The notes under the pieces: generated by a model | What the model was told of the DNA's origin: nothing | Seen by the model: the letters and a program-made list of their open reading frames with translations, nothing else | Database searches by the model: none | Position numbers and translations under genes: made by a program | Virus record (IMG/VR): IMGVR_UViG_3300044712_002679 | Coordinates: 116,406 to 180,405 of that record | DNA: 64,000 nt | Source of the DNA: a virus | Direction: 5' to 3' (one strand) | Shown here: positions 4,890 to 45,546 of the stretch, piece after piece | How the letters are laid out: each line of letters starts with the position of its first letter | Numbering within the stretch: position 1 is the first letter of the stretch

Positions 4890-5091
4890 TCTATGTAAAG
4901 ATTGAATCTGCTAATGATAAAGGATATGAAGTTGAAAAATTTGAATTGGATTCCCACGTTTTTTATTTAATTCAAATTGGTGAAAAAGTTGATGTAAAAA
5001 TTAATTATGATAGGTATAATAATAAAACATCTGTTATGGGTATTGATGAATATTATTATCATAATTATTTAAATGACTATTGAATATTTTG

Positions 5092-5178
5092 TGTGCTAGG
5101 TGGGACTCGAACCCACGGTGAAGCTTACGCTTATCTGATTAAGAGTCAGGACCGTTCGCCAACTACGGATACTAGCAC
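5092..5178 (-). tRNA. class-II (long variable arm) tRNA with anticodon CUU and discriminator A73
   Basis: 7-bp acceptor GTGCTAG/CTAGCAC, T-arm GTGGG-TTCGAGT-CCCAC, anticodon loop CTCTTAA (U33, CUU, A37), 17-nt variable arm with AAGC/GCTT stem; 87 nt. Confidence 0.55.
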
Positions 5179-5186
5179 ATTTTTTG

Positions 5187-5258
5187 CAGGCTGACAAGGA
5201 TTCGAACCCTGATCTAGAGATTTGGAGTCACTTATGCTAACCGTTGCACCATCAACCT
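5187..5258 (-). tRNA. tRNA-Trp (CCA)
   Basis: acceptor AGGTTGA/TCAGCCT (one G-U), T-arm CAGGG-TTCGAAT-CCTTG, anticodon loop CTCCAAA; one U-U mismatch in anticodon stem. Confidence 0.65.
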
Positions 5259-5271
5259 ATTACATAACTAT

Positions 5272-5304
5272 AAAATGGCAGCAAATTCAATTTGCTGCCA
5301 TTTT
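5272..5304. other. perfect 14-bp-arm palindrome (AAAATGGCAGCAAATT-ca-AATTTGCTGCCATTTT) between two tRNA genes
   Basis: read directly; followed by T-run in the direction of tRNA transcription. Confidence 0.7.
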
Positions 5305-5307
5305 ATT

Positions 5308-5443
5308 GTGGAGAAAGAAGGATTCGAACCCCCGACACACGGCTCCCATTGCTTAGATTTTTGGTTTGCTGTGCATAATTTTTACTTTCGACAAATTACG
5401 TTTTTCTCTTTTTACGTTGCTCTACCAACTGAGCTATTTCTCC
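5308..5443 (-). tRNA. interrupted tRNA: canonical 5' acceptor/D-arm and T-arm/3' acceptor separated by ~60-nt AT-rich insert
   Basis: 5' GGAGAAA-TA-GCTCAGTTGGTAGAGC... and ...GGGGG-TTCGAAT-CCTTC-TTTCTCC-A pair perfectly as one acceptor stem; anticodon arm not resolvable. Confidence 0.5.
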
Positions 5444-5450
5444 ATTTTTT

Positions 5451-5948
5451 TTATTCAGGTAAATCCCAAATATAATACTTATCTTCTTTTTCATATATTG
5501 TATCACGAGGTTCCAAATCAATATCTTCCAAATATCCAATACAATTATGAAAATTAGCCGAATCTGTATGATTCCATCTACTGTAATCATCATGTGTTCT
5601 TTGAAAATATGTAGTCAAAAATGATTCAATATATCCATGGTGTACCAATAGTGAATTGCTTGTATAAAAACATATCTTATGACCATTAATTATAGCAAAT
5701 GAAAAATTTATGTATACTGGTAATGTTTCAGATTTAATTTTACCATTTCCGTTAATATTCAATTCTATTATATAATAAGACCACCCCCTACTTACTTCTT
5801 CCCAATTATATTTAGGATCATTGTGATAATCTTGCCACAAATTAAATCTTTCTTCACTTGTTGCTTCAACTATCCATTCTACATCTTCTAAATAAGAATT
5901 TCCTAACTTTTTGTGTAAATAATTCCTGTTGTTTAATCCTACATCCAT
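5451..5948 (-). CDS. hypothetical protein (165 aa)
   Basis: clean ORF between tRNA genes; no motif recognised. Confidence 0.5.
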   Translation of the reverse strand: MDVGLNNRNYLHKKLGNSYLEDVEWIVEATSEERFNLWQDYHNDPKYNWEEVSRGWSYYIIELNINGNGKIKSETLPVYINFSFAIINGHKICFYTSNSLLVHHGYIESFLTTYFQRTHDDYSRWNHTDSANFHNCIGYLEDIDLEPRDTIYEKEDKYYIWDLPE

Positions 5949-6011
5949 AATATCAAATTTAATGTTTGATATTTTTAGATATAAATAAATGAAAAGTTTA
6001 ATAATTTTTTG

Positions 6012-6104
6012 CGGAGAATGTCAGGCTCGAACTGACACACCAGATTACTCATCCGATGACAAGTTTTCAAAACTAGGACGATACCAATTTCGTTTTAATT
6101 CTCC
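6012..6104 (-). tRNA. tRNA-Ser (UGA)
   Basis: 93 nt, acceptor GGAGAAT/ATTCTCC + G73, anticodon loop TTTGAAA, long variable arm, T-arm GTCAG-TTCGAGC-CTGAC. Confidence 0.65.
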
Positions 6105-6108
6105 AAAG

Positions 6109-6182
6109 GGGTAAATTACAGATTCGAACTGTAACTAAGTGAACCACAATCACCCATGCTAACCATTAACACCAATTTACCC
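6109..6182 (-). tRNA. tRNA-His (GUG) with genomically encoded G-1 pairing C73
   Basis: G-1 + GGTAAAT/ATTTACC + C73, anticodon loop TTGTGGT, T-arm TACAG-TTCGAAT-CTGTA. Confidence 0.75.
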
Positions 6183-6185
6183 ATA

Positions 6186-6995
6186 TTACCAATTCATTTT
6201 TCTTCCTTTTTTCCAACCATTTAATAAATAATCATTTAAATCTTTTTTATTTATCTTGATACATTTTTTTTCATTTTCACATATTATCCAACATTTTCCA
6301 AATTGTGAATTCTTTTCACCTTTTTGGGATATTGAATTTGCTTGACCAATTTTTATTTTAGTTTCATCTGAATGTTTTCTATTAACCCAAAATGATATTA
6401 ATTCACCATTAATATATCGTTCATCATCTTTACTAACTAGCATCACCTTATCTATATTATCTTTAACTAGTACTAGTCCTTTGTGTATTGATATTAATTC
6501 ACCATTAATATATCGTTCATCAGTATTAAAAACATTAAAAATATTACCATCTTTATCTTTACATATAATTCTATTTTTTTGTATAGATATCAATTCACCA
6601 TTAATATATCGTTCATCATCTTTACTAACTTTCAAAATATTACCATCTACATCATTAACCACAATTTTATTTTGAAATATTGGTCTATATTTATCTAAAT
6701 TATTATTTATATAATACCAACCACCACTTCCACCCAAAGTTAAATTGTAATATTCTTTAGAATTAACCACATCTTCATTTACTAATTCTTTTTCTTTTTT
6801 TAACATATCTTCTTTAGATTTACAAAAATGCAATATAACTTTTTCAAAATTATCAACACCATATTTATTTATAGCATTTTTTAAATATTTACCCGACCCC
6901 ATATAATCATCAAAAATATTTTCTGTTACATGACAGCCAATATATTTTTTATTATTAATTTTATTGGTTATTTCATAAATAATATAATTTTTCAT
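6186..6995 (-). CDS. GIY-YIG homing endonuclease with C-terminal tandem ~22-aa repeats
   Basis: N-terminus KNYIIYEITNK...KYIGCHV...MGSGKYLKNAINKYG (GIY...YIG + catalytic block); start moved to internal ATG 6995 to avoid overlapping tRNA 7056-7132; repeats (ERYINGELISI) encoded by DNA repeats 6390-6665. Confidence 0.7.
   Translation of the reverse strand: MKNYIIYEITNKINNKKYIGCHVTENIFDDYMGSGKYLKNAINKYGVDNFEKVILHFCKSKEDMLKKEKELVNEDVVNSKEYYNLTLGGSGGWYYINNNLDKYRPIFQNKIVVNDVDGNILKVSKDDERYINGELISIQKNRIICKDKDGNIFNVFNTDERYINGELISIHKGLVLVKDNIDKVMLVSKDDERYINGELISFWVNRKHSDETKIKIGQANSISQKGEKNSQFGKCWIICENEKKCIKINKKDLNDYLLNGWKKGRKMNW
6390..6665. repeat. imperfect tandem DNA repeats (unit containing caccattaatatatcgttcatca) inside GIY-YIG gene
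   Basis: at least three near-identical ~35-bp blocks at ~6397, 6496, 6596. Confidence 0.65.
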
Positions 6996-7055
6996 AACTT
7001 TTTTATTTGTATATATTAAATAAAAAAGTTCGATTTTAGTTCGAATTAAATTTTT

Positions 7056-7132
7056 GGGTGAAAGACGGGGTACGATCCCGCAAAGTTCCTGGTTCACAGC
7101 CAGGCAAGTCTACCAATTCCTCTACAATCACC
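7056..7132 (-). tRNA. tRNA-His-like (anticodon GUG, G-1:C73) with A54/U58-swapped T-loop and two U-U acceptor mismatches; possibly degenerate
   Basis: anticodon arm CCTGG-CTGTGAA-CCAGG, T-arm GCGGG-ATCGTAC-CCCGT. Confidence 0.4.
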
Positions 7133-7142
7133 ATAATTATTG

Positions 7143-7214
7143 TCAACCAGATGGGATTCGAACCCACGTAAACCGTGATTCACAATCACGTCCCGAACAC
7201 CAAACACGGGTTGC
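7143..7214 (-). tRNA. tRNA-His-like (GUG) with E. coli-like T-arm GTGGG-TTCGAAT-CCCAT, G-1:A73, weak D-arm; possibly degenerate
   Basis: anticodon arm CGTGA-TTGTGAA-TCACG perfect; acceptor CAACCCG/CTGGTTG with one mismatch. Confidence 0.4.
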
Positions 7215-7222
7215 TGGAGGGG

Positions 7223-7308
7223 CGGAGAAAACAGGAATCGAACCTGCACCCCAGTTACCCGAGGAACGGTTTTCCAAACCGTTGCAGTACCATTATGCTT
7301 ACTTCTCC
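7223..7308 (-). tRNA. tRNA-Ser (GGA)
   Basis: 86 nt, acceptor GGAGAAG/TTTCTCC + G73, anticodon arm ACGGT-TTGGAAA-ACCGT, variable-arm hairpin CCTCGG/CTGGGG. Confidence 0.65.
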
Positions 7309-7535
7309 AATTTTTTAAATTTTTCTTTTAATTTTTCTTTTACTTCATCAGAAGTATAATACCATTTCATATTAATTTGCATTTCAGAAATGATAATTCC
7401 CCATTCTGCTTTTGCTGAAAATTGTGGTTTGTATTTAATTCTTTGATAAATAAATATAAATGGCACACATAAATACCAACGATATCTAATTATTCTTTCA
7501 ATTAAATTGCATTCTTGAAATCTTTTATTTTTCAT
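7299..7535 (-). CDS. hypothetical small protein (78 aa) within tRNA array
   Basis: ORF in tRNA-free gap; start assignment uncertain. Confidence 0.3.
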   Translation of the reverse strand: MKNKRFQECNLIERIIRYRWYLCVPFIFIYQRIKYKPQFSAKAEWGIIISEMQINMKWYYTSDEVKEKLKEKFKKLEK

Positions 7536-7554
7536 AATTTATACATTTTTTAGC

Positions 7555-7638
7555 GGAGAGAAAGGGGGTCGAACCCTCAAGCCGAATAAACGACCGACAG
7601 ATTAGCAATCTGCTCCAATACCATTATGGGACCTCTCC
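7555..7638 (-). tRNA. tRNA-Ser (GCU)
   Basis: acceptor GGAGAGG/TCTCTCC + G73, anticodon arm GCAGA-TTGCTAA-TCTGT, long variable arm. Confidence 0.65.
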
Positions 7639-7728
7639 AAAATCAGAATACATTTTGTGGGTTTGAACCACGTTAACAAAGTTTCAGTTTGTATTTTAAC
7701 CTTTTGTTTTTGCTGTGCGTATTCTTTG

Positions 7729-7801
7729 TGGGGTAGACTGGTTACGATCCAGTTCCTATGGATTTTCAGTCCACCGCAATGACCACATCTGCCACTACCC
7801 C
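7729..7801 (-). tRNA. tRNA-Phe (GAA) with A54/U58-swapped T-loop (ATCGTAA)
   Basis: acceptor GGGGTAG/CTACCCC + A73, anticodon arm GTGGA-CTGAAAA-TCCAT, T-arm ACTGG-ATCGTAA-CCAGT. Confidence 0.65.
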
Positions 7802-7810
7802 AATTATTTG

Positions 7811-7894
7811 CGGAGAAAAAGGGATTCGAACCCCCACACCAGTTTCCCGATTTCACTGTTTTCGAAACAGCTAACTACACCAATAGGCTTCTCC
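7811..7894 (-). tRNA. tRNA-Ser (CGA)
   Basis: acceptor GGAGAAG/TTTCTCC + G73, anticodon arm GCTGT-TTCGAAA-ACAGT, long variable arm. Confidence 0.6.
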
Positions 7895-8055
7895 AAGTTC
7901 AGAATACTTTTGTGACATCGAATCACGACAAATTTCAAGTTTGCTTTACCTTTTTTTGCTGTATGTATTCTTTTTTGTGGACTGTATCGGATTTGCACCG
8001 ATTGTTAGCATAATTACTTTTTTGGTTTGCTATGCTTCAAAAAGCAACAGCCCAT

Positions 8056-8676
8056 TTATTTTTTATATTTATTTTTATTTTTTCCACCATGTGTATCTAA
8101 TGTTGCATTACAATTTGGACATAATATTCTTAAATTTGTTAATCTATGATCATTATTTATCCCATTTATATGATCTAATATTAAACTTATATGTTTTCCT
8201 TTCCAATTTTCATCTTGTCCACACATTTCACACTTTCTTTTTTTTAATCCATCTTCATATAATCTTTCTTTCAAATGTGTTGTATTAAAATTGGAATTTT
8301 CAACTAATATTAATGATAAATCTATTTTTTTATTTAAATTTTTTATTTGAAATTCATATTTAATAAAATGATCAATATTTATATCATATTTTTTAATATA
8401 TTTTTTTAATGTGTTATAAGAAGAACCAAAATTATTAATATCTAATTTAATTAAACATTCTTTATATGTTTTTGAATTTTTAACAATTTCAATTAAATAA
8501 TCTTTTTCATATTTATTTTTTACACTATAATGTGCTTCTATTTTTAATTTTTTTCGTCTTTCCTCAATTGATCTTATTGATCTATCTAATTTAGTTAAAC
8601 AATATTTTAAACCATAAATAGGATAATTTTCAATCAATATATCATCTTCATTTTTTGTCCATTTTTTATTTTTCAT
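8056..8676 (-). CDS. HNH homing endonuclease
   Basis: C-terminal CEMCGQDENWKGKHISLILDHINGINNDHRLTNLRILCPNCN (Cys pairs + DH...N...H...N HNH core); located inside tRNA array. Confidence 0.75.
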   Translation of the reverse strand: MKNKKWTKNEDDILIENYPIYGLKYCLTKLDRSIRSIEERRKKLKIEAHYSVKNKYEKDYLIEIVKNSKTYKECLIKLDINNFGSSYNTLKKYIKKYDINIDHFIKYEFQIKNLNKKIDLSLILVENSNFNTTHLKERLYEDGLKKRKCEMCGQDENWKGKHISLILDHINGINNDHRLTNLRILCPNCNATLDTHGGKNKNKYKK

Positions 8677-8767
8677 TTTAAGTTATTTTTTGTAGTATAT
8701 ATAAATATTTTAAACTACAAAAAATCACTATGAACTATAAAAATTCAAAAAAATAGTTATGGGAATG

Positions 8768-8848
8768 CACGACAGAGAGGATTCGAACCCCTGAACCTTT
8801 CGGTATAGTTTTGGAGACTATCAGCTTTAACCACTTGCATACTGCCGT
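8768..8848 (-). tRNA. tRNA-Trp-like (CCA) with 12-nt extended variable region; D-stem poorly formed
   Basis: acceptor ACGGCAG/CTGTCGT, anticodon arm ATAGT-CTCCAAA-ACTAT perfect, T-arm AGGGG-TTCGAAT-CCTCT. Confidence 0.45.
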
Positions 8849-8867
8849 ATATTTTTGCGGAGGCGAA

Positions 8868-8951
8868 GGGAATCGAACCCCCAAATCATTACTGATTTAC
8901 TTGTTTTCAAGACAAGCCCCTCGTCCATTCGGACCACCTCCAAATACAATT
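8868..8951 (-). tRNA. tRNA-Ser (UGA), second copy
   Basis: acceptor GGAGGTG/CGCCTCC + G73, anticodon arm CTTGT-CTTGAAA-ACAAG, variable hairpin AAATCA/TGATTT. Confidence 0.65.
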
Positions 8952-9001
8952 TAAAAGATTGTTCGTTATTTTTTGCTGTATGTATTCTTTGTGGGGTGAG
9001 G

Positions 9002-9077
9002 TGGATTCGAACCACCATCCCTGGATTTTCAGTCCAGTGCGAAACTGACCAACTGCGCTACCACCCCAATAAGTATA
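9002..9077 (-). tRNA. tRNA-Phe (GAA), second copy, with enlarged D region (extra hairpin CAGT-TTCGC-ACTG)
   Basis: acceptor GGGGTGG/TCACCCC + A73, anticodon arm CTGGA-CTGAAAA-TCCAG, T-arm GGTGG-TTCGAAT-CCACC. Confidence 0.55.
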
Positions 9078-9094
9078 ACGTATGTGCGTCTGGT

Positions 9095-9167
9095 GGGTCA
9101 CGATCCCACGACTCCATCATTAAAAGTGATGTACTCTACCAACTGAGTTACAGACGCAAAAATATTC
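9095..9167 (-). tRNA. tRNA-Lys (UUU), canonical class I, A54/U58-swapped T-loop (ATCGTGA)
   Basis: acceptor GCGTCTG/CAGACGC + A73, D-arm ACTC-AGTTGGTA-GAGT, anticodon arm CATCA-CTTTTAA-TGATG. Confidence 0.75.
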
Positions 9168-9196
9168 AATATGTCAATGAACTTTAAAAAAAATTG

Positions 9197-9282
9197 TGAT
9201 CCCGATGGGACTCGAACCCATGTACAACTTTCGTATCCCACATTAAAAGTGTGGTGCCTCGTTCCAACTCGGCCACGGAATC
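9197..9282 (-). tRNA. class-II (long variable arm) tRNA with anticodon UUU and discriminator A73
   Basis: acceptor GATTCCG/CGGGATC (one G-U), 3-bp D-stem GCC/GGC, anticodon arm CCACA-CTTTTAA-TGTGG perfect, 16-nt variable arm, T-arm ATGGG-TTCGAGT-CCCAT. Confidence 0.55.
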
Positions 9283-9302
9283 AATAAATAAAGAACGTAA
9301 CA

Positions 9303-9345
9303 AAAAAAAATCCGAACTTTTTACGGTTCGGATTTTTCTGTTTTA
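9303..9345. terminator. bidirectional intrinsic terminator (ATCCGAAC...GTTCGGAT hairpin between A9 and T-run) bounding the tRNA array
   Basis: 8-bp inverted repeat read directly. Confidence 0.65.
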
Positions 9346-9583
9346 TCTTAATTAAAAATCAATTTATTTTGACTTATTAAGTAAGCATACGAAATCCGAA
9401 CCTGATCTATGTGACCAAAAGCTCTTAAAGGATTTACTATGTTTACTTACGTTTCTCATGATTTCTATTTTTTACTTTGTTTTACTTATATAGAAAATTA
9501 ATTCTATTTTGTTTATTTTTTCTTTTATATATTAACGTAAAAAAGTCATTTTTTTCTATTTTTGATTTTTGTGACTTTTCACG

Positions 9584-9640
9584 ATACAAATATACGCATT
9601 ATTTTTAATCTACCAAATTTTTTTAATGTTTTTTTTTAAA
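9584..9640. repeat. ~57-bp direct repeat copy 1 (acaaatatacgcattatttttaatctaccaaatttttttaatg...)
   Basis: near-identical second copy at 9824-9880 flanking a GC-richer core. Confidence 0.6.
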
Positions 9641-9823
9641 ATAATTAACAGAAAGAGTTTTAACCTTTCCGCAAGACTTTCGCAATAACTTTCTCAAGGT
9701 TGTTGTTAGTTCTTGTTTGTATCCAGTCTCTTATCCCCTTTGAGTTGGGTGTTTAGGTATTATAAGTGAACTCTCTTATAATCTTGCTTGGGCGCACATC
9801 CTAAACTTTACTTTTCAAATTCT

Positions 9824-9880
9824 TTACAAATATACACATTATTTTTTAATCACCAAATATTTTTCAATATTTTTTCAATT
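9824..9880. repeat. ~57-bp direct repeat copy 2
   Basis: acaaatatacacattattttttaatcaccaaatatttttcaatat, matches copy 1 with few substitutions. Confidence 0.6.
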
Positions 9881-9949
9881 AAATTCATTGGTTTACAATT
9901 GGTAATTGGCAAAATTACTAAAATTGGCAATAATAAATCAAATGTTTTT

Positions 9950-10270
9950 TCATTTATTTTTCATTTCGAATTCGAATGTTGCATCATATGATTCACAATA
10001 TCCTGGTTTATCGTAAGATATTTTCCAACCATAATCTCGATATAAGTCTTCAAAATCCATCCAATGATTTTTGTATATATGTTCACTTGTCATATGTTCG
10101 GGTGCAACTTTCATAATTTCTGTCATAATATCTTTTTGTCTTATCGTAAAACTAGATTTGACATAATTATTTTTAATTGCATTATTTATTCCGAGTATTA
10201 CAAAATCTGGAATATTACTTTTTGCTTCATTCCTAGCTTCTTCTGGTGTTATTGGCTTAATTTCTGACAT
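9950..10270 (-). CDS. hypothetical protein (106 aa)
   Basis: ORF heading a long minus-strand gene block. Confidence 0.45.
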   Translation of the reverse strand: MSEIKPITPEEARNEAKSNIPDFVILGINNAIKNNYVKSSFTIRQKDIMTEIMKVAPEHMTSEHIYKNHWMDFEDLYRDYGWKISYDKPGYCESYDATFEFEMKNK

Positions 10271-13952: not shown

Positions 13953-14144
13953 TTATTTAAATCTTTTTTCAAAACTTTCTTTATTTAATGATACACCATT
14001 CTGAAATTTATAAAATCTTCCATCGAAAATAACATTAAATACATCACCAGATTTTGCATCTAATTTATTATCAATGCCATTTCGAACATTTTTTATTTGT
14101 ACATCTTCTGTACACGTTACAGTTTTTGTTATACTTTTTTTCAT
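13953..14144 (-). CDS. hypothetical small protein
   Basis: start moved to internal ATG (MKKSITK) to give a 4-nt overlap with the upstream gene. Confidence 0.35.
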   Translation of the reverse strand: MKKSITKTVTCTEDVQIKNVRNGIDNKLDAKSGDVFNVIFDGRFYKFQNGVSLNKESFEKRFK

Positions 14145-14632
14145 ATTGGTAATATGTGAAATTCTTTTAAAAATATATAATTTACAATATATTCCCAATT
14201 AGGGAATTCTTTAGAACCAAATTTTATAAATTCACCTTTAAAATCTAATTGTCCATGCATATCAGTATCATCAATTAGATAATCTCCAATATGTAAAGAT
14301 TTATCACATGACATATCAAGTCTTTCTAATGTTTCAAATCCTAAATGTTCAAGAACCCAATATGCTTTTTCTGTATAACTATTTAGATTATATATTGATG
14401 GTCGAGTTAAAATACGAACTTCAAAATATTCTTCAAGTTTTTTAAATGCTTTAATTGCACCTGGGATTTCTTCCAATTTAATAAAAAATCCAAACTGTGA
14501 TTGTGGATATTTTTGTGTTGGACATTTTTCCAAATCATTTAAATATGCCTTTGCAAAATTGCAAAGAACCCCATCTAAATCCACATATATTATTTTATTT
14601 TTTTTCATTTTTAAAATTTTTAAATTTTTCAT
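14141..14632 (-). CDS. HAD-family 5'(3')-deoxyribonucleotidase
   Basis: N-terminal IIYVDLDGVLCNF (DxDGVL motif I of HAD deoxyribonucleotidases). Confidence 0.65.
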   Translation of the reverse strand: MKNLKILKMKKNKIIYVDLDGVLCNFAKAYLNDLEKCPTQKYPQSQFGFFIKLEEIPGAIKAFKKLEEYFEVRILTRPSIYNLNSYTEKAYWVLEHLGFETLERLDMSCDKSLHIGDYLIDDTDMHGQLDFKGEFIKFGSKEFPNWEYIVNYIFLKEFHILPI

Positions 14633-15389
14633 ATTTTCTATTCAAATATATATCAGACAAATTTTCTTCATAAATATAATTTAAAAAATTAAATGCATCT
14701 CTATACAAATATAATCTATTTGTTGAATAATGTTTTAAAATTTTTGTTTTTTTTGTTATTATTTTATTTTTTTCTAAAAAATCTTGAATTTGTTCTAAGC
14801 ATTCTTTAGTTGATATTAAATTTACTTTTATTCTATTATTATCTTTACCATATATTGTTAATGATCCATCACCATCAAACATACCAGCTATAAAATTCAA
14901 ATAATATTTTTCATCTATGTTTTTAATAATGAAATTATCACTTTTTTCAACATTTATATATTTTTGTAATTTTTTTGTGAATAAATTATTTGTAATAGAT
15001 ATTACATATGAAGTATATTCTTTATTGTTTCTTTTGTCAATAGTTGTATTTTTAACAATTTTATGTTCAGATTCTAATGACTTTTTAAATTTTATTAATA
15101 TTTCTTCATCTTTAGATACTAATCTAACTTTATTATTTTTTAAACAACCATCTGCAACAATAAAACCTAACCAATACGCTTTTTCTTTCGTGTCAATATT
15201 ATCAAAATATGATATATTGAATTTTAATTTGCTTTCATTTAACCTATTTCTATTTGTATTAATATTATTGTTTCTTAATATATTACTTACTGTTACTTGT
15301 GATATATTTAATTTTTTTGATATTTCAATTTGTTTATTTGTTAACGATAAATTAATTATTTCTGTTATTAAATCTTTATTTATTTTCAT
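14595..15389 (-). CDS. LAGLIDADG homing endonuclease (two-motif, monomeric type)
   Basis: AYWLGFIVADGCL and NFIAGMFDGDGSL motifs; N-terminal HTH-like segment. Confidence 0.7.
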   Translation of the reverse strand: MKINKDLITEIINLSLTNKQIEISKKLNISQVTVSNILRNNNINTNRNRLNESKLKFNISYFDNIDTKEKAYWLGFIVADGCLKNNKVRLVSKDEEILIKFKKSLESEHKIVKNTTIDKRNNKEYTSYVISITNNLFTKKLQKYINVEKSDNFIIKNIDEKYYLNFIAGMFDGDGSLTIYGKDNNRIKVNLISTKECLEQIQDFLEKNKIITKKTKILKHYSTNRLYLYRDAFNFLNYIYEENLSDIYLNRKYEKFKNFKNEKK

Positions 15390-15441
15390 TTATATTCCAT
15401 ATCATTTTTTTTATTTTAATATTTGTCCATATCAACATATA

Positions 15442-15882
15442 TTATATATTAATATTAAAATCTCGTTTTATTCTAATTTTTTCTTCTCGATCAAAAATAG
15501 AATTTTTTTTATCATACAGTTTTTTTCCTTTGGCAATACAAATTGTTACTTTACAAAGACCTTGTTTATTAACAAACATATTCAAAGGAATTATTGTTAA
15601 TCCTTTTTCTTTTATTTTGACTTTAAGTTTTTTTAATTCTTTTTTTGTTAATAATAATTTTTTTGGTCGTTTTGGATCATGATTAAATTGATTTGCAAAT
15701 TCATATTCATCAATATGACAATTTACTAAATATAAATCGTTTCCTGTAAACGAACAAAAACTTTCAGATAATGATGCTTTACCCTTTCTTATTGATTTTA
15801 TTTCTGAACCCACAAGCTGAATCCCCGCTACGATTTCATCTTCTATAAAAAATTCGTAGTATGCTTTTTTATTTTTTATCAT
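15442..15882 (-). CDS. smpB: SsrA-binding protein SmpB
   Basis: aligns along full length with E. coli SmpB by eye ([24 protein letters not shown] / [40 protein letters not shown] / KVKIGVAKGKKQHDKR). Confidence 0.85.
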   Translation of the reverse strand: [146 protein letters not shown]

Positions 15883-16201
15883 ATCTGATTTTATTTATTT
15901 TTTGTAATTTTAACTTTCTATCATTTCGTAATATTAATACATTAATTTCATTAGCACCACTAACATTATCATCAATTTTTTTAACATTATCTAACATTTC
16001 AGAATTTAATATTTCAATACTATTACCCTTTAAATCATTTACTACACTACCTATTTTTGGATATGTTGGATATGTTAACGGTAATTTTGTTTTTCGGCAA
16101 AGAAATTCAAATATTAAAGTAGATCCATAATTTAAAGGATTCCAATCTTTTTCATTTGAAATAATCCATGTATTATAAAAAATATATCCATAATATTTCA
16201 T
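15869..16201 (-). CDS. hypothetical protein (110 aa)
   Basis: operon context, overlaps neighbours by 4/14 nt. Confidence 0.4.
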   Translation of the reverse strand: MKYYGYIFYNTWIISNEKDWNPLNYGSTLIFEFLCRKTKLPLTYPTYPKIGSVVNDLKGNSIEILNSEMLDNVKKIDDNVSGANEINVLILRNDRKLKLQKINKIRYDKK

Positions 16202-17169
16202 AATAAAATTCTTCCTTTATTTGGAAATTTGTAATTTTTAACTATTTCGTTATATACTTTATCGACTGTTGGATGACATTTATAAATATTTGGATCAGGA
16301 TCAATATCTTGACCCACTGTTTCTGGATTATCTAAACAAAAAGCTACAGGTGGCATAATATTATATTTACTGTTATATTTAATGCAATATTTCATATCTG
16401 ATGCACAAAATAATTTACAATCACCTAAAATATATGAATATTTATAATTTTGATATCCTTTTCTATATGGTGATCTCAATCTTGGATCAATTGAACTACC
16501 CAATTGAATAATATGTGTATCTGTTGTACCAGCCAAATGTAATATTCCGGAGTCCATTGTAATTACCATTGATGATTTATTTAAAATATGCCAAGTCTGA
16601 TGAATATTTATTTTATTAATTAGATTAAGTCCATTTTTAACATCTATATCATAAACAGGCTTCTGTATTTTATAATTTCCGTGTTCAACAGCATCTTTAC
16701 CAATTAATACTATCGGAATATTAATTTTGTTTATTTCATTTACTAGTTCTTGCCATCGTTCTTTTTCCCAACTTCTAGATGGCCAAGATTTAACAGGATG
16801 CATCACAATATAATTTTCTGGTAAATTAGATATCTCTTCATATTCATCAGGAAAAAATTCAATTTTCATTTCTTCGGGTAATAATTGAAATCCGGCACTA
16901 ATAGAATGAATTTGTCTAATATCTGTTCTAGTGTGAAGAAATTTATCGGGTCTAAAAGTTTCAATAAATAAATCACCATCATCTGGTGTTTGGTTATCAG
17001 TCAATATTATATATGGATAATTTTTAAGTAATTCTTTTTGATATGTGTAAACATAAATATTTTGATCATAGATTTCACTAAGATATTTTATTGTTGGAAT
17101 AGCACATAATGTATCACCGACACTTTGAGAACCAATTAAAACTAATATTTTCATTCTAATTATATACAT
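16198..17169 (-). CDS. glycosyltransferase family 9 (ADP-heptose:LPS heptosyltransferase-like)
   Basis: MKILVLIGSQSVGDTL N-terminus and MDSGILHLAGTTDTHIIQLGSS match WaaC/WaaF signature blocks. Confidence 0.75.
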   Translation of the reverse strand: MYIIRMKILVLIGSQSVGDTLCAIPTIKYLSEIYDQNIYVYTYQKELLKNYPYIILTDNQTPDDGDLFIETFRPDKFLHTRTDIRQIHSISAGFQLLPEEMKIEFFPDEYEEISNLPENYIVMHPVKSWPSRSWEKERWQELVNEINKINIPIVLIGKDAVEHGNYKIQKPVYDIDVKNGLNLINKINIHQTWHILNKSSMVITMDSGILHLAGTTDTHIIQLGSSIDPRLRSPYRKGYQNYKYSYILGDCKLFCASDMKYCIKYNSKYNIMPPVAFCLDNPETVGQDIDPDPNIYKCHPTVDKVYNEIVKNYKFPNKGRILL

Positions 17170-17253: not shown

Positions 17254-17925
17254 ATGGCTAAATTATTAAAATATGAATCTTTTTTGAATGAAAAAAAATT
17301 GAATTTAGATAACACATATGAATATTTGAAAAAAGTTACTAAAAAATGTAATTATGAACAATCCCAACATTTTTATATGAAAGAACCAATTGAAATTGGA
17401 ACATGTAAAAGTGGTAAATTTTATTTAAATTATTTAAGTGTTAATTATTATGATGATCATTTAGCATTTTGGATTATATATAATGAAAGACCAGATAAAT
17501 TATTTGGCACATCTTGGGATTCATCCGTAATATGGGAAGAAGAAGGTAAATTGAATTATATTGATGAAAACATCAAAGAAGAATTTAAATTATATCCAAA
17601 TTTTATGGAAATTATTGCAGAAAAAATCAAATCATATGATGATTTAGATAACTGGTGTAAATATTTAGTTGATCTTGGTTTAAAATCTAGAAAATATCAT
17701 CGTTGGGCAATATCAGCATCTATAAAAGATAAATTAACATGGGATGAAAGAATAGAATGGACAAAAAATCAAATTGAAATTGACAAATTATTGAATCGTC
17801 ATTCTAAACCTGTTGAAGAAAAACGATTGAAAGATATGTTAACTTTGGGTGAAGTTGAATATGATAAAAAAATGAATAAACAGAATAAAGAAATTGAAGA
17901 TATTTTAAAAGAAATGGATTTATAA
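17254..17925 (+). CDS. hypothetical protein (223 aa)
   Basis: isolated plus-strand ORF. Confidence 0.5.
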   Translation: MAKLLKYESFLNEKKLNLDNTYEYLKKVTKKCNYEQSQHFYMKEPIEIGTCKSGKFYLNYLSVNYYDDHLAFWIIYNERPDKLFGTSWDSSVIWEEEGKLNYIDENIKEEFKLYPNFMEIIAEKIKSYDDLDNWCKYLVDLGLKSRKYHRWAISASIKDKLTWDERIEWTKNQIEIDKLLNRHSKPVEEKRLKDMLTLGEVEYDKKMNKQNKEIEDILKEMDL

Positions 17926-18615
17926 TAAGTGACATATTTTTTTAGCTGCTTCAACACAAGACAATACATCATGTTCACAATAGTTTTTAATTCTTTCTAA
18001 TTCACCACGTTCCCAATAACTAGTGTGGACTTCTTTTCCACACATATCAGTTTTTGGACTTTCGATATTTAAACAATATAACATATCATCGAATGATGAT
18101 GTTTCTAATGTTCCTATACTTCGCCACACTTCAGATAAATCGAATACTGGCATATCCCATGGTTTAACATCAAATGTTTTTAATATCTTAGGTATTTCTA
18201 AACCATATGACAACATTTTTTTATTCATCCAGGGAATGTCAAATCCCTTTATATAATATCCACATAGTTGATATAAAGTTTTATTTGCGTTAGAAAAAAT
18301 CGAATGTGATTTTTTCATGATTTTTTCTTCATCATCATCATAACATGATATGATTTTAACATTTCCTTTTGTTGCTGTTGCAATTGATACACAAACAGTT
18401 TTACCAAATTCAGGCATAATACCTGCCTTTTTAATATATACTATATTTGGATCACCTGCCCATTCAGCACTTCCTGATGCAGATGATGCCCTACGTCTTT
18501 CTAACTTATTCATAAATAAATCATATCCCCGTACATCATTTACTTTTAATGTTTCTAAATCGGGATATTTGCCGACAGTTTCTATATCGAAATATATTAA
18601 TTCACCATAATTCAT
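17920..18615 (-). CDS. DnaQ-like DEDDh 3'-5' exonuclease
   Basis: Exo I YFDIETVG, Exo II GFDIPW, Exo III YCEHDVLSCVEA. Confidence 0.6.
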   Translation of the reverse strand: MNYGELIYFDIETVGKYPDLETLKVNDVRGYDLFMNKLERRRASSASGSAEWAGDPNIVYIKKAGIMPEFGKTVCVSIATATKGNVKIISCYDDDEEKIMKKSHSIFSNANKTLYQLCGYYIKGFDIPWMNKKMLSYGLEIPKILKTFDVKPWDMPVFDLSEVWRSIGTLETSSFDDMLYCLNIESPKTDMCGKEVHTSYWERGELERIKNYCEHDVLSCVEAAKKICHLL

Positions 18616-32896: not shown

Positions 32897-33355
32897 TTAA
32901 ATTAATGATTGAAATTTTACATATTTTTTAGGACACAAATAAAAATTTCGATAACTTTTTTCTTTTTTATCATACAATTCTTTAAAAAACCAATTTTTAT
33001 ATGTACTACTATATATTATTAAACACTTGGTTTTAGAAGCATTTAATATTATATAGCAATATAATGTCCTTATATTTCTTTTATCTATTTTATATTTTTC
33101 ATCAACAATTATATCTTGGTATGGTACATCATCAAATGTCATAAAATCTATTTCTTTCCATTGTTTGACTTCAACCCGCATTGATATTTTTATATCACCA
33201 TCATCAGTATGTTCATATCTCGATTCTTCATCTGGTGTTACAGTATATGGTAAAATCTCACTATCAAAACCCAATTTTGTCATCCAATTATTAACAACAA
33301 TTGTTGCTTTTTTAGCATCATTTAAATTTTGCGTAAAAATGTTTCTGGGTTTCAT
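32897..33355 (-). CDS. hypothetical protein (152 aa)
   Basis: 4-nt overlap with polB fragment stop. Confidence 0.45.
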   Translation of the reverse strand: MKPRNIFTQNLNDAKKATIVVNNWMTKLGFDSEILPYTVTPDEESRYEHTDDGDIKISMRVEVKQWKEIDFMTFDDVPYQDIIVDEKYKIDKRNIRTLYCYIILNASKTKCLIIYSSTYKNWFFKELYDKKEKSYRNFYLCPKKYVKFQSLI

Positions 33356-41808: not shown

Positions 41809-41811
41809 TTT

Positions 41812-43515: not shown

Positions 43516-43518
43516 TTT

Positions 43519-44823: not shown

Positions 44824-44877
44824 AATAAAAATTTTTTAAAAAACTTACAATAAATTTGCTTTTTCGTAATAAAAACT

Positions 44878-44885
44878 TATATTTG
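44878..44885 (+). promoter_or_regulatory. TATATTTG promoter-like element upstream of 44914
   Basis: TAnnTTTG. Confidence 0.4.
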
Positions 44886-44913
44886 CACAATGTTTAATTA
44901 AAAATATAAGTTT

Positions 44914-45546
44914 ATGAAAAAGTTTTTATCATTTGAAGAAGCAAAGGCATTTGCACAAAGTTTAAATTTAAAATCCTTAAAGGATTGGAAAGATTACTGT
45001 AAATCGGGTAACAAACCTAATAATATTCCAAATGATCCGTACAGTGCATATAAAAACAACAATTGGATTTCGTGGGGTGATTGGTTGGGTACATTTAGGG
45101 TTTCGAATAGGAACAAACAGTTCATATCTTTTGAAGAAGCAAAAGAAATTATCAAAAAATTAAATTTGAAAAACCGAAAAGATTATGAAAAATATCAATC
45201 AGATATGATTGAAAAACTTAATAATGCGACTGTACCAACAAATCCAAATGTTGTATATAGTAGTTCTTGGAAAAGTTGGAATGATTTTTTGGGTATAGAA
45301 CCAAATGAATTTCTTCCATTTGAAGAAGCAAGGAATTTTGTGCGATCACTTAATTTAAAAAGTGTTCGGGATTGGGAAAAATACAGAAAACAAAAACCTG
45401 ATAATATTCCATCTTTACCAAGTAGTTATTATAAAGAAAAATGGATAAATTGGGGGGATTGGTTAGGAACAAACAATGTTGCTACTAAATACGTATCATT
45501 CGAAGATGCAAAAAATATTGTTCGTAAATTAAAAGATTCAAAATGA
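44914..45546 (+). CDS. repeat-family protein 4 (short; ~3.5 repeats, no Zn ribbon, no tail)
   Basis: same repeat unit. Confidence 0.65.
   Translation: MKKFLSFEEAKAFAQSLNLKSLKDWKDYCKSGNKPNNIPNDPYSAYKNNNWISWGDWLGTFRVSNRNKQFISFEEAKEIIKKLNLKNRKDYEKYQSDMIEKLNNATVPTNPNVVYSSSWKSWNDFLGIEPNEFLPFEEARNFVRSLNLKSVRDWEKYRKQKPDNIPSLPSSYYKEKWINWGDWLGTNNVATKYVSFEDAKNIVRKLKDSK

What the first reader, a model, noticed from the sequence alone, without database searches (positions are those of the whole stretch)
15442..15882. Phage-encoded SmpB (trans-translation factor) without an obvious tmRNA gene in the window
The 146-aa ORF is colinear with bacterial SmpB along its whole length, so the identification is robust. 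It includes the C-terminal basic tail, which is needed in the ribosomal A-site. SmpB is essential for tmRNA function. A phage copy suggests manipulation of ribosome rescue, for example to cope with truncated host mRNAs or nuclease-damaged messages during takeover. It could also suggest the use of a phage-specific tmRNA-like partner. I could not find a canonical ssrA in this window (no ...GGTTCGA.TCC...CCACCA 3' domain with a G3:U70 acceptor). The partner may therefore be the host tmRNA, a gene outside the window, or a non-canonical RNA.
Basis: partly seen in the sequence, partly recalled or inferred. Interest (0 to 1): 0.7.

Follow-up and report, generated by a model that had tools for sequence, protein, structure and literature searches.

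The report
Huge-phage SmpB with swapped tail
This is a real copy of the bacterial ribosome-rescue protein SmpB carried by a very large virus of Bacteroidota bacteria, a kind of gene already reported in huge phages; its one unusual feature is that a selfish homing-endonuclease cassette has replaced the end of its functionally important tail.

Summary
The ORF at 15442-15882 (minus strand, 146 aa) is SmpB. It passes Pfam and both NCBIfam equivalog cut-offs by a wide margin, and the predicted fold matches only SmpB structures. No tmRNA gene was found in the window, in 9.6 kb beyond its left edge, or within 10 kb of smpB in about 25 related loci. The window is AT-rich phage DNA, and the cluster holding the exact protein has a 501-kb contig. 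smpB sits at a conserved position in a family of large Bacteroidota phages and is under purifying selection (dN/dS 0.08-0.19). Every residue that is 90% or more conserved in Bacteroidota SmpB is kept, apart from one conservative change. Phage-encoded SmpB and tmRNA were already reported in huge phages (Al-Shayeb 2020), so the finding is a new member of a known kind.

One thing is new. The last ~21 codons belong to an 878-nt cassette (14630-15507) that also carries a LAGLIDADG homing endonuclease gene. Close relatives without the cassette have the ordinary Bacteroidota tail. In one relative the old tail survives fused to the endonuclease ORF. The replacement tail keeps KGKK, the aromatic residue, DKK and a predicted helix. 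It resembles Flavobacteriaceae tails, so it is probably functional. The partner is most likely host tmRNA, but this is unproven.

Separately, a leader-peptide attenuator upstream of the tRNA array deserves its own evaluation.

The parts
15442..15882 (-). smpB gene, 146 aa (ATG 15882, TAA 15442-15444)
   Evidence: ORF list and sequence. Pfam PF01668 E = 1e-52. NCBIfam equivalogs above cut-off. Fold matches only SmpB. dN/dS 0.08-0.19 against relatives.
15508..15882 (-). smpB body plus proximal tail (codons 1-125: beta-barrel, central loop, KGKK, Tyr123, Asp124-Lys125). This part is inherited vertically within the phage family.
   Evidence: Homology to cassette-free alleles runs to gene nt 372-375 (L175 91.5% and L010 85% identity). 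Every position that is >=90% conserved in Bacteroidota SmpB is retained, except A110C.
15442..15507 (-). Replacement distal tail ('type A': ...K126 [20 protein letters not shown]). It is the left end of the mobile cassette.
   Evidence: The last 45-51 nt are 92-98% identical to L003 and L008, whose gene bodies are only 67-71% identical. Type A is scattered over the body tree next to type-B sisters. It is absent from 79 Bacteroidota genomes. It is most similar to Flavobacteriaceae tails; 0 of 300 shuffles reach the score. It is predicted helical, residues 125-142.
14630..15507 (-). 878-nt cassette (replacement tail, 52-nt spacer, LAGLIDADG gene). It takes the place of 77 nt in the cassette-free allele L010.
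   Evidence: Pairwise BLASTN breakpoints of window against L010. Different cassettes occupy the same site in L005 (1011 nt) and L003 (~964 nt).
14595..15389 (-). Free-standing LAGLIDADG homing endonuclease gene, 264 aa, with two motifs (LGFIVADG, AGMFDGDGS) and an N-terminal HTH-like segment.
   Evidence: Pfam LAGLIDADG_3 E = 1.2e-13, two stretches. Sequence. Absent from cassette-free relatives L010, L012 and L174.
14141..14632 (-). NT5C-type 5'-nucleotidase gene, the conserved right-hand neighbour. The real start is probably the ATG at 14608 (MKKNKIIYVDLDG).
   Evidence: Pfam NT5C E = 8.6e-13. 85% identical to the L010 gene, which directly follows smpB there.
15869..16201 (-). 110-aa ORF of unknown function. 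Its end overlaps the smpB start by 14 nt.
   Evidence: ORF list. A homologous small ORF is in the same place in L001, L002 and L003. No Pfam or PHROG hit.
16198..17169 (-). Family-9 glycosyltransferase gene, the conserved left-hand neighbour of smpB in the phage family.
   Evidence: Pfam Glyco_transf_9 E = 1.4e-13. Same neighbour in L003, L005-L008, L010-L012, L015 and L016.

Best explanation
The ORF is a genuine, selectively maintained smpB gene of a very large AT-rich phage that infects Bacteroidota.

Origin and inheritance (shown or well supported). The gene was captured from a Bacteroidota lineage. It has since been inherited within a family of large phages at a fixed position: glycosyltransferase, small ORF, smpB, variable insert, NT5C.

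Mechanism (inferred). It acts as ordinary SmpB. It binds the tRNA-like domain of a tmRNA and carries Ala-tmRNA into ribosomes stalled at the 3' end of broken mRNAs. Its C-terminal tail probes the empty mRNA channel. This keeps ribosomes available during a long infection in which messages are truncated by host shut-off, mRNA-cleaving toxins or tRNA-targeting defences.

Partner. The most likely partner is the host tmRNA. The protein keeps every strongly conserved Bacteroidota SmpB residue, and no phage tmRNA is near it in this phage or its relatives.

The cassette (shown). In this particular phage the 3' end of the gene has been rebuilt. A free-standing LAGLIDADG homing-endonuclease cassette sits in the tail-coding region. 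It supplies a surrogate distal tail related to Flavobacteriaceae-type tails.

The cassette (inferred). The surrogate tail keeps SmpB working while destroying the endonuclease's presumed target, the conserved ...KD(I/V)KRD... coding sequence.
For: Identity:
- (details in the observation check).

Phage context:
- GC is 21-31%.
- A T5 A1-like protein matches phrog_1745 at 8.6e-134. Its best hits are phages of Maribacter, Cellulophaga and Flavobacterium.
- Further phage-type genes: a PolB fragment, a primase, a helicase and many HNH, GIY-YIG and LAGLIDADG genes.
- The 90%-identity cluster that holds the exact protein has a longest contig of 501,337 bp; the contigs retrieved here with the exact protein are 21 kb and 1.4 kb.
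- Relatives lie on IMG/VR contigs up to 154,853 bp and an NCBI contig of 235,103 bp.

Bacteroidota origin:
- All 80 closest GTDB loci are Bacteroidota, apart from one MAG labelled Gammaproteobacteria, at 46-58% identity.
- Named protein hits reach 62%.

Vertical inheritance and selection:
- Synteny holds across L001-L016.
- dN/dS of the body is 0.08-0.19, with dS 0.5-2.2.
- All positions >=90% conserved in Bacteroidota SmpB are kept, including the central loop, KGKK, the aromatic residue and D-K.

Cassette:
- Type-A tails occur in 17 of the 120 best hits. They are scattered through the tree next to type-B sisters with near-identical bodies.
- All four independent type-A contexts have a 264-309-aa ORF inserted 21-53 nt after the stop. 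Three of these ORFs are LAGLIDADG genes.
- The empty sites L010, L012 and L174 have the type-B tail and no insert.
- Breakpoints were mapped at nucleotide level.
- In L003 the last 42 nt of the endonuclease ORF are the old type-B tail, 91% identical to the empty-site allele L174.
- Tail-A DNA is 92-98% identical between loci whose gene bodies are 67-71% identical.

The replacement tail is probably functional:
- It has the usual length and a predicted helix at residues 125-142.
- It keeps Arg at the E. coli R145 and R153 equivalents.
- Between type-A tails the changes are conservative or synonymous.
- It is significantly similar to Flavobacteriaceae tails.
- The tail features used as the yardstick come from Miller & Buskirk 2014 (PMC4151336).
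Against: - No partner tmRNA was identified, and about 430 kb of the genome was not visible.
- The Lys equivalent to E. coli K143 is Lys in 97% of the Bacteroidota sequences but Phe here (A, R or S in other type-A tails). DKR is DKK.
- The near-identity of tail-A DNA across diverged phages shows recent exchange or a constraint at DNA level. Conservation of the tail is therefore not by itself proof of selection on the protein.
- The endonucleases next to tail A are themselves diverse (30% identity between the window's and L003's), and one locus has an unrelated 309-aa ORF. The history is more complex than one cassette spreading.
- No virion structural gene lies in the window, so 'phage' rather than another large extrachromosomal element is a strong inference and not a demonstration.
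- Nothing here tests activity.
Confidence: 0.62

Rival explanations
1. The phage SmpB works mainly with a phage-encoded tmRNA that lies elsewhere in the ~500-kb genome. Such a tmRNA might carry an unusual tag, so that the phage runs its own rescue system rather than topping up the host's.
For: - Al-Shayeb 2020 reports both tmRNAs and SmpB in huge phages.
- Among 75 IMG/VR smpB loci, 18 have a tmRNA within 10 kb.
- Several of these are on large viral contigs, with the tmRNA directly upstream of smpB and atypical tags: L153-155 ATSNVEVA (contig up to 297,651 bp), L169/170 ATSEVAVA, L121/L152 with a 20-residue tag.
- Only about 74 kb of the genome could be scanned.
Against: - No tmRNA is in the window, in the 9.6 kb to its left, or within 10 kb of smpB in about 25 loci of the same phage family.
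- The phages that do carry a tmRNA next to smpB belong to other, more distant SmpB lineages (38-48% identity).
- Many of the 18 are short contigs with smpB at the very end and canonical host tags. These are probably host flanks of prophages.
- The SmpB surface shows no family-specific change at conserved positions that would suggest adaptation to a divergent RNA.
Confidence: 0.27
2. The protein is a decoy. With its altered distal tail it still binds host tmRNA but cannot support accommodation. It would therefore block host trans-translation and tagging, for instance to protect phage proteins from SsrA-directed degradation.
For: - The distal tail is non-ancestral and lacks the Lys equivalent to E. 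coli K143, a position whose mutation impairs tagging (PMC4151336).
- Tail mutants of SmpB are known to keep tmRNA and ribosome binding while losing function (PMC4151336).
Against: - Most family members, including sisters whose bodies differ at only 1-5 residues, carry the ordinary Bacteroidota tail. The function of the gene in the family is therefore the canonical one.
- The replacement tail is full length and predicted helical. It keeps KGKK, the aromatic residue, D-K-K and two of the three downstream basic positions. It resembles a natural tail class from Flavobacteriaceae.
- Differences between type-A tails are conservative; none is truncated or frameshifted.
Confidence: 0.06
3. The gene is not phage-borne. 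It would be a bacterial smpB on a mis-binned or chimeric contig, or host DNA flanking a prophage, as in Staphylococcus phage records where smpB sits at the record end.
For: - Several 'phage' database hits are of exactly this kind. StauST398-5 has smpB at positions 37-459.
- Short IMG/VR contigs carry smpB at the end, with a canonical host tmRNA next to it.
- No structural gene is in the window.
Against: - smpB lies 15 kb or more from either end of the window, among phage-type genes on both sides.
- The same neighbourhood recurs in many independent metagenomes and IMG/VR contigs.
- Its composition (21% GC locally) matches the rest of the window.
- It is only 46-62% identical to any cellular SmpB, whereas phage-family members reach 68-91%.
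Confidence: 0.04

Closest known systems
Bacterial SmpB (SsrA-binding protein; Pfam PF01668, TIGR00086), especially that of Bacteroidota
   Same: Full-length profile match. The predicted fold has the same beta-barrel. The central loop is present, as are KGKK, the aromatic residue and D-K in the proximal tail, and a helical basic tail of normal length. Every position >=90% conserved in 79 Bacteroidota sequences is kept, except A110C.
   Different: It is encoded by a phage. It is only 46-62% identical to any cellular sequence. No tmRNA gene was found in the DNA visible here. The distal 20 residues are of a type not found in the 79 Bacteroidota genomes sampled, and Phe replaces a 97%-conserved Lys.
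SmpB genes of huge phages (Al-Shayeb et al. 2020, PMC7162821; Lak megaphages; LR756501-LR756504; PHROG family phrog_6791)
   Same: SmpB is carried by a phage genome of hundreds of kilobases, together with many tRNAs and other translation-related genes. Best cellular hits are Bacteroidota, as for several of the published genomes.
   Different: This is a separate lineage. It is 53.5% identical to LR756501 and 44-46% to the Lak phages, no closer than to bacteria. No DNA similarity to any deposited phage was found with a 20-kb query spanning smpB. The homing-endonuclease-borne tail has not been described, as far as my searches show.
Phage smpB-ssrA pairs and phage tmRNAs (IMG/VR loci L153-155, L169/170, L121/L152; Bxz1-like mycobacteriophages and Bacillus phage G listed in Hudson et al. 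2014, PMC4131195)
   Same: Phages carrying parts of the trans-translation system.
   Different: Those phages encode the RNA, either alone or right next to smpB. Here, and in the whole family around this window, smpB stands alone within at least 10 kb.
Free-standing homing endonuclease genes of T4-like phages: intronless homing with co-conversion of flanking markers, and insertions that split or remodel host genes such as nrdA of Aeh1 and gene 43 of phage 25 (Edgell, Gibb & Belfort 2010, PMC2988022; also PMC10448857)
   Same: - Presence/absence polymorphism at one site among close relatives.
- A mosaic boundary exactly at the endonuclease gene.
- Flanking coding sequence travels with the insert.
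- The host gene apparently stays functional.
   Different: - The enzyme is a LAGLIDADG type rather than GIY-YIG or HNH.
- The insertion does not split the gene into two polypeptides. It swaps the C-terminal tail for a homologous one from another lineage.
- In one relative the discarded tail is fused to the endonuclease.
- No cleavage data exist.

Membership tests
SmpB (PF01668 / TIGR00086 / NF003843) | Full-length match to the curated family profiles above their cut-offs | tested here: met
   178.3 bits against 27 (Pfam). 179.5 against 130 and 174.2 against 119.1 (NCBIfam equivalogs). Residues 2-142 are covered.
SmpB (PF01668 / TIGR00086 / NF003843) | Oligonucleotide-binding beta-barrel fold of SmpB | tested here: met
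   AlphaFold2 model with pLDDT 81.4. Foldseek against PDB gives 21 hits at E <= 4e-6, all SmpB, with TM about 0.6-0.8. This is a prediction, not a solved structure.
SmpB (PF01668 / TIGR00086 / NF003843) | [quoted passage not shown] | tested here: met
   Residues about 58-78 align without deletion. Y60, N67, H68, R72, K75 and L76-L78 are conserved in both the phage and the bacterial sets.
SmpB (PF01668 / TIGR00086 / NF003843) | Proximal tail motifs: KGKK, an aromatic residue (E. coli H136 / Thermus Y126), DKR (PMC4151336) | tested here: met
   K118-G-K-K121, Y123, D124-K125-K126. DKR is DKK here, a conservative change. Arg is present at this position in 48% of the phage-clade sequences and 97% of the bacterial ones.
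SmpB (PF01668 / TIGR00086 / NF003843) | Distal tail: a helix of about 20 residues with basic side chains that bind the mRNA channel (E. coli K143, R145, R153; W147) | tested here: inconclusive
   Helix predicted at 125-142, with pLDDT 61-76. R132 and R140 align with R145 and R153. The K143 equivalent is F130. The W147 equivalent is E134, but this position is not conserved in Bacteroidota either. The segment is a cassette-borne replacement related to Flavobacteriaceae tails.
SmpB (PF01668 / TIGR00086 / NF003843) | Binds tmRNA and supports trans-translation | not testable with these tools
   Needs binding, tagging or complementation assays.
Complete trans-translation system (smpB plus ssrA in one genome) | A tmRNA gene in the same genome | tested here: not met
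   None in the 64-kb window or in 9.6 kb to its left. The remaining ~430 kb could not be read, so this holds for the visible DNA only.
Huge-phage translation-gene repertoire (Al-Shayeb 2020) | The gene lies on a phage genome >200 kb, together with tRNAs and other translation genes | tested here: met
   The 90%-identity cluster holding the exact protein has a longest contig of 501,337 bp. There are 14-15 tRNA genes in the window. Relatives encode IF3, aaRS-like genes and Tpt1 nearby. Phage-type genes surround smpB. Caveat: no virion gene lies within the window.
Free-standing LAGLIDADG homing endonuclease cassette | Intact ORF with two LAGLIDADG motifs, not embedded in an intron or intein | tested here: met
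   Pfam LAGLIDADG_3 E = 1.2e-13 with two stretches. Motifs LGFIVADG and AGMFDGDGS. The ORF has its own ATG 52 nt after the smpB stop. No group I intron match at E <= 10.
Free-standing LAGLIDADG homing endonuclease cassette | Presence/absence polymorphism at the same site in close relatives, with co-conversion of flanking sequence | tested here: met
   Empty sites in L010, L012 and L174. Filled sites in the window, L003, L005-7 and L008. Breakpoints at gene nt 372-399. Tail-A DNA is 92-98% identical where bodies are 67-71% identical. A/B sister pairs occur throughout the tree.
Free-standing LAGLIDADG homing endonuclease cassette | The enzyme cleaves the cassette-free allele | not testable with these tools
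   The predicted target is the type-B tail-coding sequence around ...CGTGAGCGT|GACATAAAAAGAGAT... (junction seen in L174 against L003). Needs an in vitro cleavage assay.
Group I intron or intein within smpB (considered and rejected) | Ribozyme core flanking the ORF, or an uninterrupted in-frame fusion with both host segments | tested here: not met
   No Intron_gpI hit in the window or in L003. A stop codon ends smpB before the endonuclease ORF. The window has no downstream remnant of the old tail.

The most novel reading that the evidence does not exclude
smpB is one component of a coordinated phage island that defends translation against host attacks on tRNA and mRNA. The island would comprise:
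- the attenuator-controlled array of Lys, Ser, His, Phe and Trp tRNAs about 6 kb away;
- homing endonucleases inside that array;
- Tpt1-type RNA repair, IF3 and aaRS-like genes in the adjoining DNA and in relatives;
- SmpB, to clear the ribosomes that stall when anticodon nucleases or mRNA interferases fire.

Under this reading the cassette-borne tail could tune which stalled ribosomes are accepted, or the protein could serve a phage tmRNA with a non-degradative tag.
Probability: 0.15. Interest if true: 0.75.

Novelty: new member of a known kind. Interest (0 to 1): 0.35.

Why it matters
For the finding as posed, the result is mostly deflationary. A phage SmpB is real but expected in huge phages, and the lack of a neighbouring tmRNA says little. 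In the 80 GTDB Bacteroidota loci sampled here, too, no tmRNA lies within 3 kb of smpB.

Three points have some value:
1. smpB is a long-standing, purifying-selected core gene of a whole family of large Bacteroidota phages. This argues that ribosome rescue capacity limits these infections.
2. The family offers a natural experiment on the SmpB tail. Sister alleles with nearly identical bodies carry two different tails, swapped by a homing-endonuclease cassette. They could be used to ask how much of the distal tail sequence matters for sensing an empty mRNA channel.
3. It is a clean example of a selfish endonuclease inserting inside an essential functional segment of a gene while supplying a working substitute.

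The attenuator in front of the tRNA array, noted in passing, may be the more interesting object in this window.

Tried and rejected
- tmRNA hidden in the window. ARAGORN at default settings and Rfam at gathering thresholds and at E <= 10 found none. ARAGORN at a 90% threshold gave a 'permuted tmRNA' at c[8666,9084]. It is stitched from tRNA-Trp, tRNA-Ser and tRNA-Phe and has an implausible tag, so I rejected it. No tRNA-like gene has G3:U70.
- Non-coding RNAs at 9283-9960 as a tmRNA-like partner. The 9640-9820 transcript candidate has no significant fold (z = -0.95) and was found outside this phage only in L001, a contig of the same phage. The 9296-9634 element is a leader-peptide attenuator. 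Neither has an acceptor or T-arm.
- Group I intron or intein as the explanation for the endonuclease inside the tail region. Rejected: no ribozyme match, a stop codon before the ORF, and no second exon in the window.
- Reaching more of the genome. Exact-protein look-ups at the window edges added 9.6 kb on the left and nothing useful on the right.
- Single-protein scans of IMG/VR found nothing with SmpB or with the helicase. The alignment-based scan worked.
- Searching the 5.8-billion protein set with the last 42 residues, to count type-A tails more widely. It failed because no candidate shared enough words.
- Al-Shayeb supplementary files. No per-genome tmRNA table was found in the parts held as text.
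- Megablast of 20 kb of the window against deposited phages: no match.
- Covariation support for the attenuator helices. The sequences are too conserved; only one compensatory pair was seen.
Full report
**1. The observation**

It runs on the minus strand from ATG at 15882 to the TAA at 15442-15444 and encodes 146 aa.

It is SmpB beyond reasonable doubt:
- Pfam PF01668: E = 1e-52, 178 bits against a cut-off of 27, covering residues 2-142.
- NCBIfam equivalog models NF003843 and TIGR00086: 179.5 and 174.2 bits, against cut-offs of 130 and 119.
- The only solved structures it matches by sequence are SmpB proteins. The best is Thermotoga maritima 7ljp, E = 1.1e-40.
- An AlphaFold2 model built on 31 relatives (mean pLDDT 81.4) shows the beta-barrel, two helices and a C-terminal helix at residues 125-142.
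- The model's 21 significant Foldseek hits in the PDB are all SmpB. The next hit has E = 0.3.

The negative half of the observation also holds:
- ARAGORN finds 14 tRNAs and no tmRNA.
- Rfam finds no tmRNA-family match at gathering thresholds or at E <= 10.
- No tRNA-like gene has a G3:U70 acceptor.

**2. What kind of DNA this is**

The window is 21-31% G+C throughout and has no close DNA relative among deposited phages. Its gene content is phage-like:
- A T5 A1-like protein (phrog_1745, E = 8.6e-134). Its best matches are phages of Maribacter, Cellulophaga and Flavobacterium.
- A fragment of a family-B DNA polymerase, a primase and a helicase-methyltransferase fusion.
- At least seven homing-endonuclease-type genes of the HNH, GIY-YIG and LAGLIDADG kinds.
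- A tRNA array at 5091-9282.

The 90%-identity cluster that holds the exact SmpB sequence has a longest contig of 501,337 bp; the contigs I could retrieve that carry the exact protein are 21 kb and 1.4 kb. Relatives lie on an NCBI contig of 235,103 bp and on IMG/VR viral contigs up to 154,853 bp.

The closest cellular SmpBs are, with one exception (a MAG labelled Gammaproteobacteria), Bacteroidota: Bacteroidales, Flavobacteriaceae, Chitinophagales and others. They are 46-58% identical by tblastn and up to 62% for named proteins. The Bacteroidota promoter motif TTTG...TAnnTTTG (consensus recalled from my own knowledge) is mildly over-represented: 18 sites against 10 +/- 3 expected.

My reading is a huge phage of a Bacteroidota host. 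The caveat is that no virion gene lies in these 64 kb.

**3. smpB is a core gene of a phage family**

In sixteen loci fetched by exact-protein look-up, smpB keeps the same neighbourhood: PolB-exonuclease-like gene, family-9 glycosyltransferase, sometimes a small ORF, smpB, a variable insert, NT5C nucleotidase, and a tRNA array a few kilobases further on. Twenty-one further IMG/VR loci carry family-level SmpBs (59-71% identity), and several share the NT5C neighbour or the tRNA array. Family members are 59-91% identical to the window's protein.

For the body of the gene, dN/dS is 0.08-0.19 while dS is 0.5-2.2. The gene has therefore been under purifying selection for a long time inside phages.

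I aligned 90 phage-clade sequences with 79 Bacteroidota sequences. Every position that is >=90% conserved in the bacteria is retained in the phages. This includes the N-terminal NKKA, GxE(I/V)KS(I/L)R, the central loop (Y60, N67-H68, R72, K75-L78), KGKK and D-K. The single exception is Ala110 to Cys, and E. coli also has Cys there. This is the profile of a working SmpB that could bind a Bacteroidota-type tmRNA.

**4. The tail is a mosaic**

The 120 best database hits fall into two tail classes.
- Type B is ...DKRxxIKxKD(I/V)KRDxxR.... All cellular Bacteroidota sequences and most phage sequences have it.
- Type A is ...(D/E)REEKI(R/K)IKR(D/N/E)(F/Y)NINI. The window's protein and 16 others have it.

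On a neighbour-joining tree of the body alone, type A is scattered. Type-A proteins repeatedly sit next to type-B sisters whose bodies differ at only 1-5 residues: P0001/P0005, P0003/P0007, P0018/P0054 and P0026/P0086; P0004/P0006 is also a sister pair, differing at 7.

Context of the two classes:
- All four independent type-A contexts have a 264-309-aa ORF inserted 21-53 nt after the smpB stop.
  - The window has a LAGLIDADG gene (14595-15389; Pfam E = 1.2e-13, two motifs).
  - L003 and L008 have a different LAGLIDADG gene (61% identical to each other, 30% to the window's).
  - L005-7 have an unrelated 309-aa ORF.
- Type-B loci of close relatives (L010, L012, L174) have no insert.

Nucleotide breakpoints:
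- Against L010, homology stops at gene nt 375 and resumes just before NT5C. An 878-nt cassette (window 14630-15507) therefore replaces 77 nt.
- Against the nearest sister L175, homology stops at nt 372.
- In L003, about 964 nt replace 20 nt of the empty-site allele L174. The displaced distal type-B tail (KDIKRDTDRELRNY*) survives as the in-frame C-terminus of the endonuclease ORF, with DNA 91% identical to L174.

Tail-A DNA is 92-98% identical between loci whose gene bodies are 67-71% identical.

This is the signature of a free-standing homing endonuclease gene spreading with co-conversion of flanking sequence, as described for T4-like phages (PMC2988022; PMC10448857). I infer that the target is the conserved type-B tail-coding sequence, and that tail A is the cleavage-resistant surrogate carried by the element. 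I rejected a group I intron or an intein as explanations.

**5. Is the replacement tail functional?**

I used the features listed by Miller & Buskirk (PMC4151336).

Retained:
- KGKK (118-121).
- The aromatic residue that stacks on G530 (Y123; Tyr in Thermus).
- D124-K125, with K126 in place of Arg.
- Arg at the E. coli R145 and R153 equivalents.
- A predicted helix of normal length.

Lost:
- The Lys equivalent to K143. It is Phe here, against Lys in 97% of the Bacteroidota sequences.
- The W147 position is not conserved in Bacteroidota either.

Tail A is not random sequence. Its best matches among bacterial tails are the Flavobacteriaceae class, for example Muriicola ...ESIKDRESKVRLDRIKKSFNN against [20 protein letters not shown]. 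None of 300 shuffles reached that score. Differences among type-A tails are synonymous or conservative (R/K, D/E/N, F/Y), and none is truncated.

I conclude that the tail is probably functional. This is an inference, and the DNA-level near-identity means conservation alone cannot prove it.

**6. The partner RNA**

No tmRNA was found in any of the following:
- the window;
- the 9.6 kb to its left (locus L172);
- within 10 kb of smpB in about 25 loci of the same family.

This is weak evidence. In the 80 GTDB Bacteroidota loci too, no tmRNA lies within 3 kb of smpB, and about 430 kb of this genome is unseen.

Elsewhere in IMG/VR, 18 of 75 smpB loci have a tmRNA nearby. Many look like host flanks of prophages. 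A few large viral contigs, however, have a tmRNA directly upstream of smpB with unusual tags (L153-155, L169/170, L121/L152), and phage tmRNAs are known (PMC4131195). My estimates are host tmRNA about 0.6, a phage tmRNA elsewhere about 0.27, and a non-canonical RNA a few per cent.

**7. How it most likely works**

Shown:
- A conserved, selected SmpB in a phage.
- Canonical motifs.
- A cassette-borne tail.

Inferred:
- The protein binds tmRNA and escorts Ala-tmRNA into ribosomes stalled on 3'-truncated messages. This raises or maintains rescue capacity after host gene expression declines, or when mRNA-cleaving or tRNA-cleaving defences create stalled ribosomes.
- The surrounding DNA fits a theme of maintaining translation. 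It holds a tRNA array with its own regulator. A Tpt1-type RNA 2'-phosphotransferase lies just left of the window (L172). Relatives carry IF3 and aaRS-like genes.
- Recent work links phage tRNA loci and their homing endonucleases to evasion of tRNA-cleaving defence (PMC13096335, abstract seen).

**8. Comparison with what is known, and novelty**

Phage SmpB has been reported:
- Al-Shayeb 2020.
- Lak phages and LR75650x by similarity.
- PHROG family phrog_6791.

This is a new lineage of that known kind. The endonuclease-mediated tail exchange is, as far as three literature searches show, undescribed for SmpB. It is, however, a recognisable instance of known homing-endonuclease behaviour. Overall interest is modest.

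**9. Seen in passing**

Immediately upstream of the tRNA array (window 9296-9634, minus strand) lies an element conserved in at least ten family loci.
- It has a Bacteroidota-type promoter.
- It has a roughly 30-codon ORF whose codons 5-17 are all Ser, Lys, His, Phe or Trp.
- In the window these 13 codons use 8 of the 9 anticodons encoded by the array. The ninth is matched at codon 21.
- That codon set makes up 25.5% of window codons, so P is about 2e-8 per position for 13 in a row.
- A hairpin pairs these codons with an invariant GGTTCGGA box.
- The same box is complementary to the 5' arm of an invariant terminator. The fold has z = -6.9.

This is the architecture of a classical leader-peptide attenuator, but here it controls tRNA genes. 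One literature search found no precedent. It deserves a separate evaluation.

Noticed in passing
window 9296-9634 (minus strand); also L010 11045-11369, L013 12086-12421, L003 18556-18822, L015 16428-16763, L008 12655-12822, L098, L101, L102, L103: A conserved ~340-nt element lies directly upstream of the tRNA array. It has a promoter and a small ORF (window: MRNVSKHSKSFKSFWSHRSGSDFVCLLNKSK). The ORF core SKHS(S)KSFK(S)FWS uses only the five amino acids served by the array (Lys, Ser, His, Phe, Trp), and in the window 8 of its 9 anticodons. Next comes an invariant GGTTCGGA box that can pair either with the regulatory codons or with the 5' arm of an invariant terminator. The fold has z = -6.9. 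It looks like a classical leader-peptide transcription attenuator controlling tRNA genes, that is, feedback on tRNA supply. One literature search found no precedent.
   Followed up: partly
window 5091-9282 (minus strand): The tRNA array is restricted to Lys (x4), Ser (x4), His (x3), Phe (x2) and Trp (x2). The same narrow set recurs in relatives. Several tRNAs are unusually long, for example an 87-88-nt tRNA-Lys. A SegE-like GIY-YIG gene (6186-7097) and an HNH gene (8056-8676) sit inside the array. This may relate to host tRNA-cleaving defences (compare PMC13096335).
   Followed up: no
window 5308-5443 (minus strand): Rfam calls a 135-nt tRNA here (45.5 bits) that ARAGORN finds only when introns are allowed. 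It is a tRNA-Leu(aag)-like gene with a 55-nt insertion in the anticodon loop.
   Followed up: partly
window 9587-9617 and 9827-9857 (minus strand); candidate RNA 9636-9822: Two nearly identical Bacteroidota-type promoters (TTTGGTnGATTAAAAAnAATGnGTATATTTG) lie in tandem. The upstream one precedes a GC-richer stretch of about 180 nt that ends in a hairpin and a T-run. That stretch has no significant fold (z = -0.95), no Rfam match, and no counterpart in other family loci.
   Followed up: partly
L003 10465-11385: In this relative the LAGLIDADG endonuclease ORF ends with the displaced SmpB tail (…KVKKDIKRDTDRELRNY*). The endonuclease is therefore made as a fusion carrying 14 residues of SmpB's ribosome-binding tail.
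   Followed up: yes
L153-L155 (tmRNA 9521-9927, smpB 10001-), L169/L170, L121, L152: Other large IMG/VR viral contigs (up to 297,651 bp) carry a tmRNA directly upstream of smpB. Their predicted tags are atypical: ATSNVEVA, ATSEVAVA, ANVYNNMEIAGVLATSKVAA. These look like phage-owned trans-translation pairs.
   Followed up: no
window 33352-34722, 17920-18615 and 40489-46670: The family-B DNA polymerase appears to be in pieces. The 456-aa ORF matches only profile positions 136-453, and a separate PolB-exonuclease-like gene is present. A cluster of HNH-type endonuclease genes and integrase-repeat proteins occupies 40.5-46.7 kb. The phage is unusually rich in homing endonuclease genes.
   Followed up: no
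L013 about 14500 (tRNA at +2256 from the attenuator); L008 3369-3890; L015 3762-4286; L172 7474-7998: Relatives carry a tRNA with anticodon UCA, called 'SeC', which may be a UGA suppressor. They also carry IF3 genes, aaRS-like fragments and a Tpt1-type RNA 2'-phosphotransferase close to the smpB-tRNA region.
   Followed up: no
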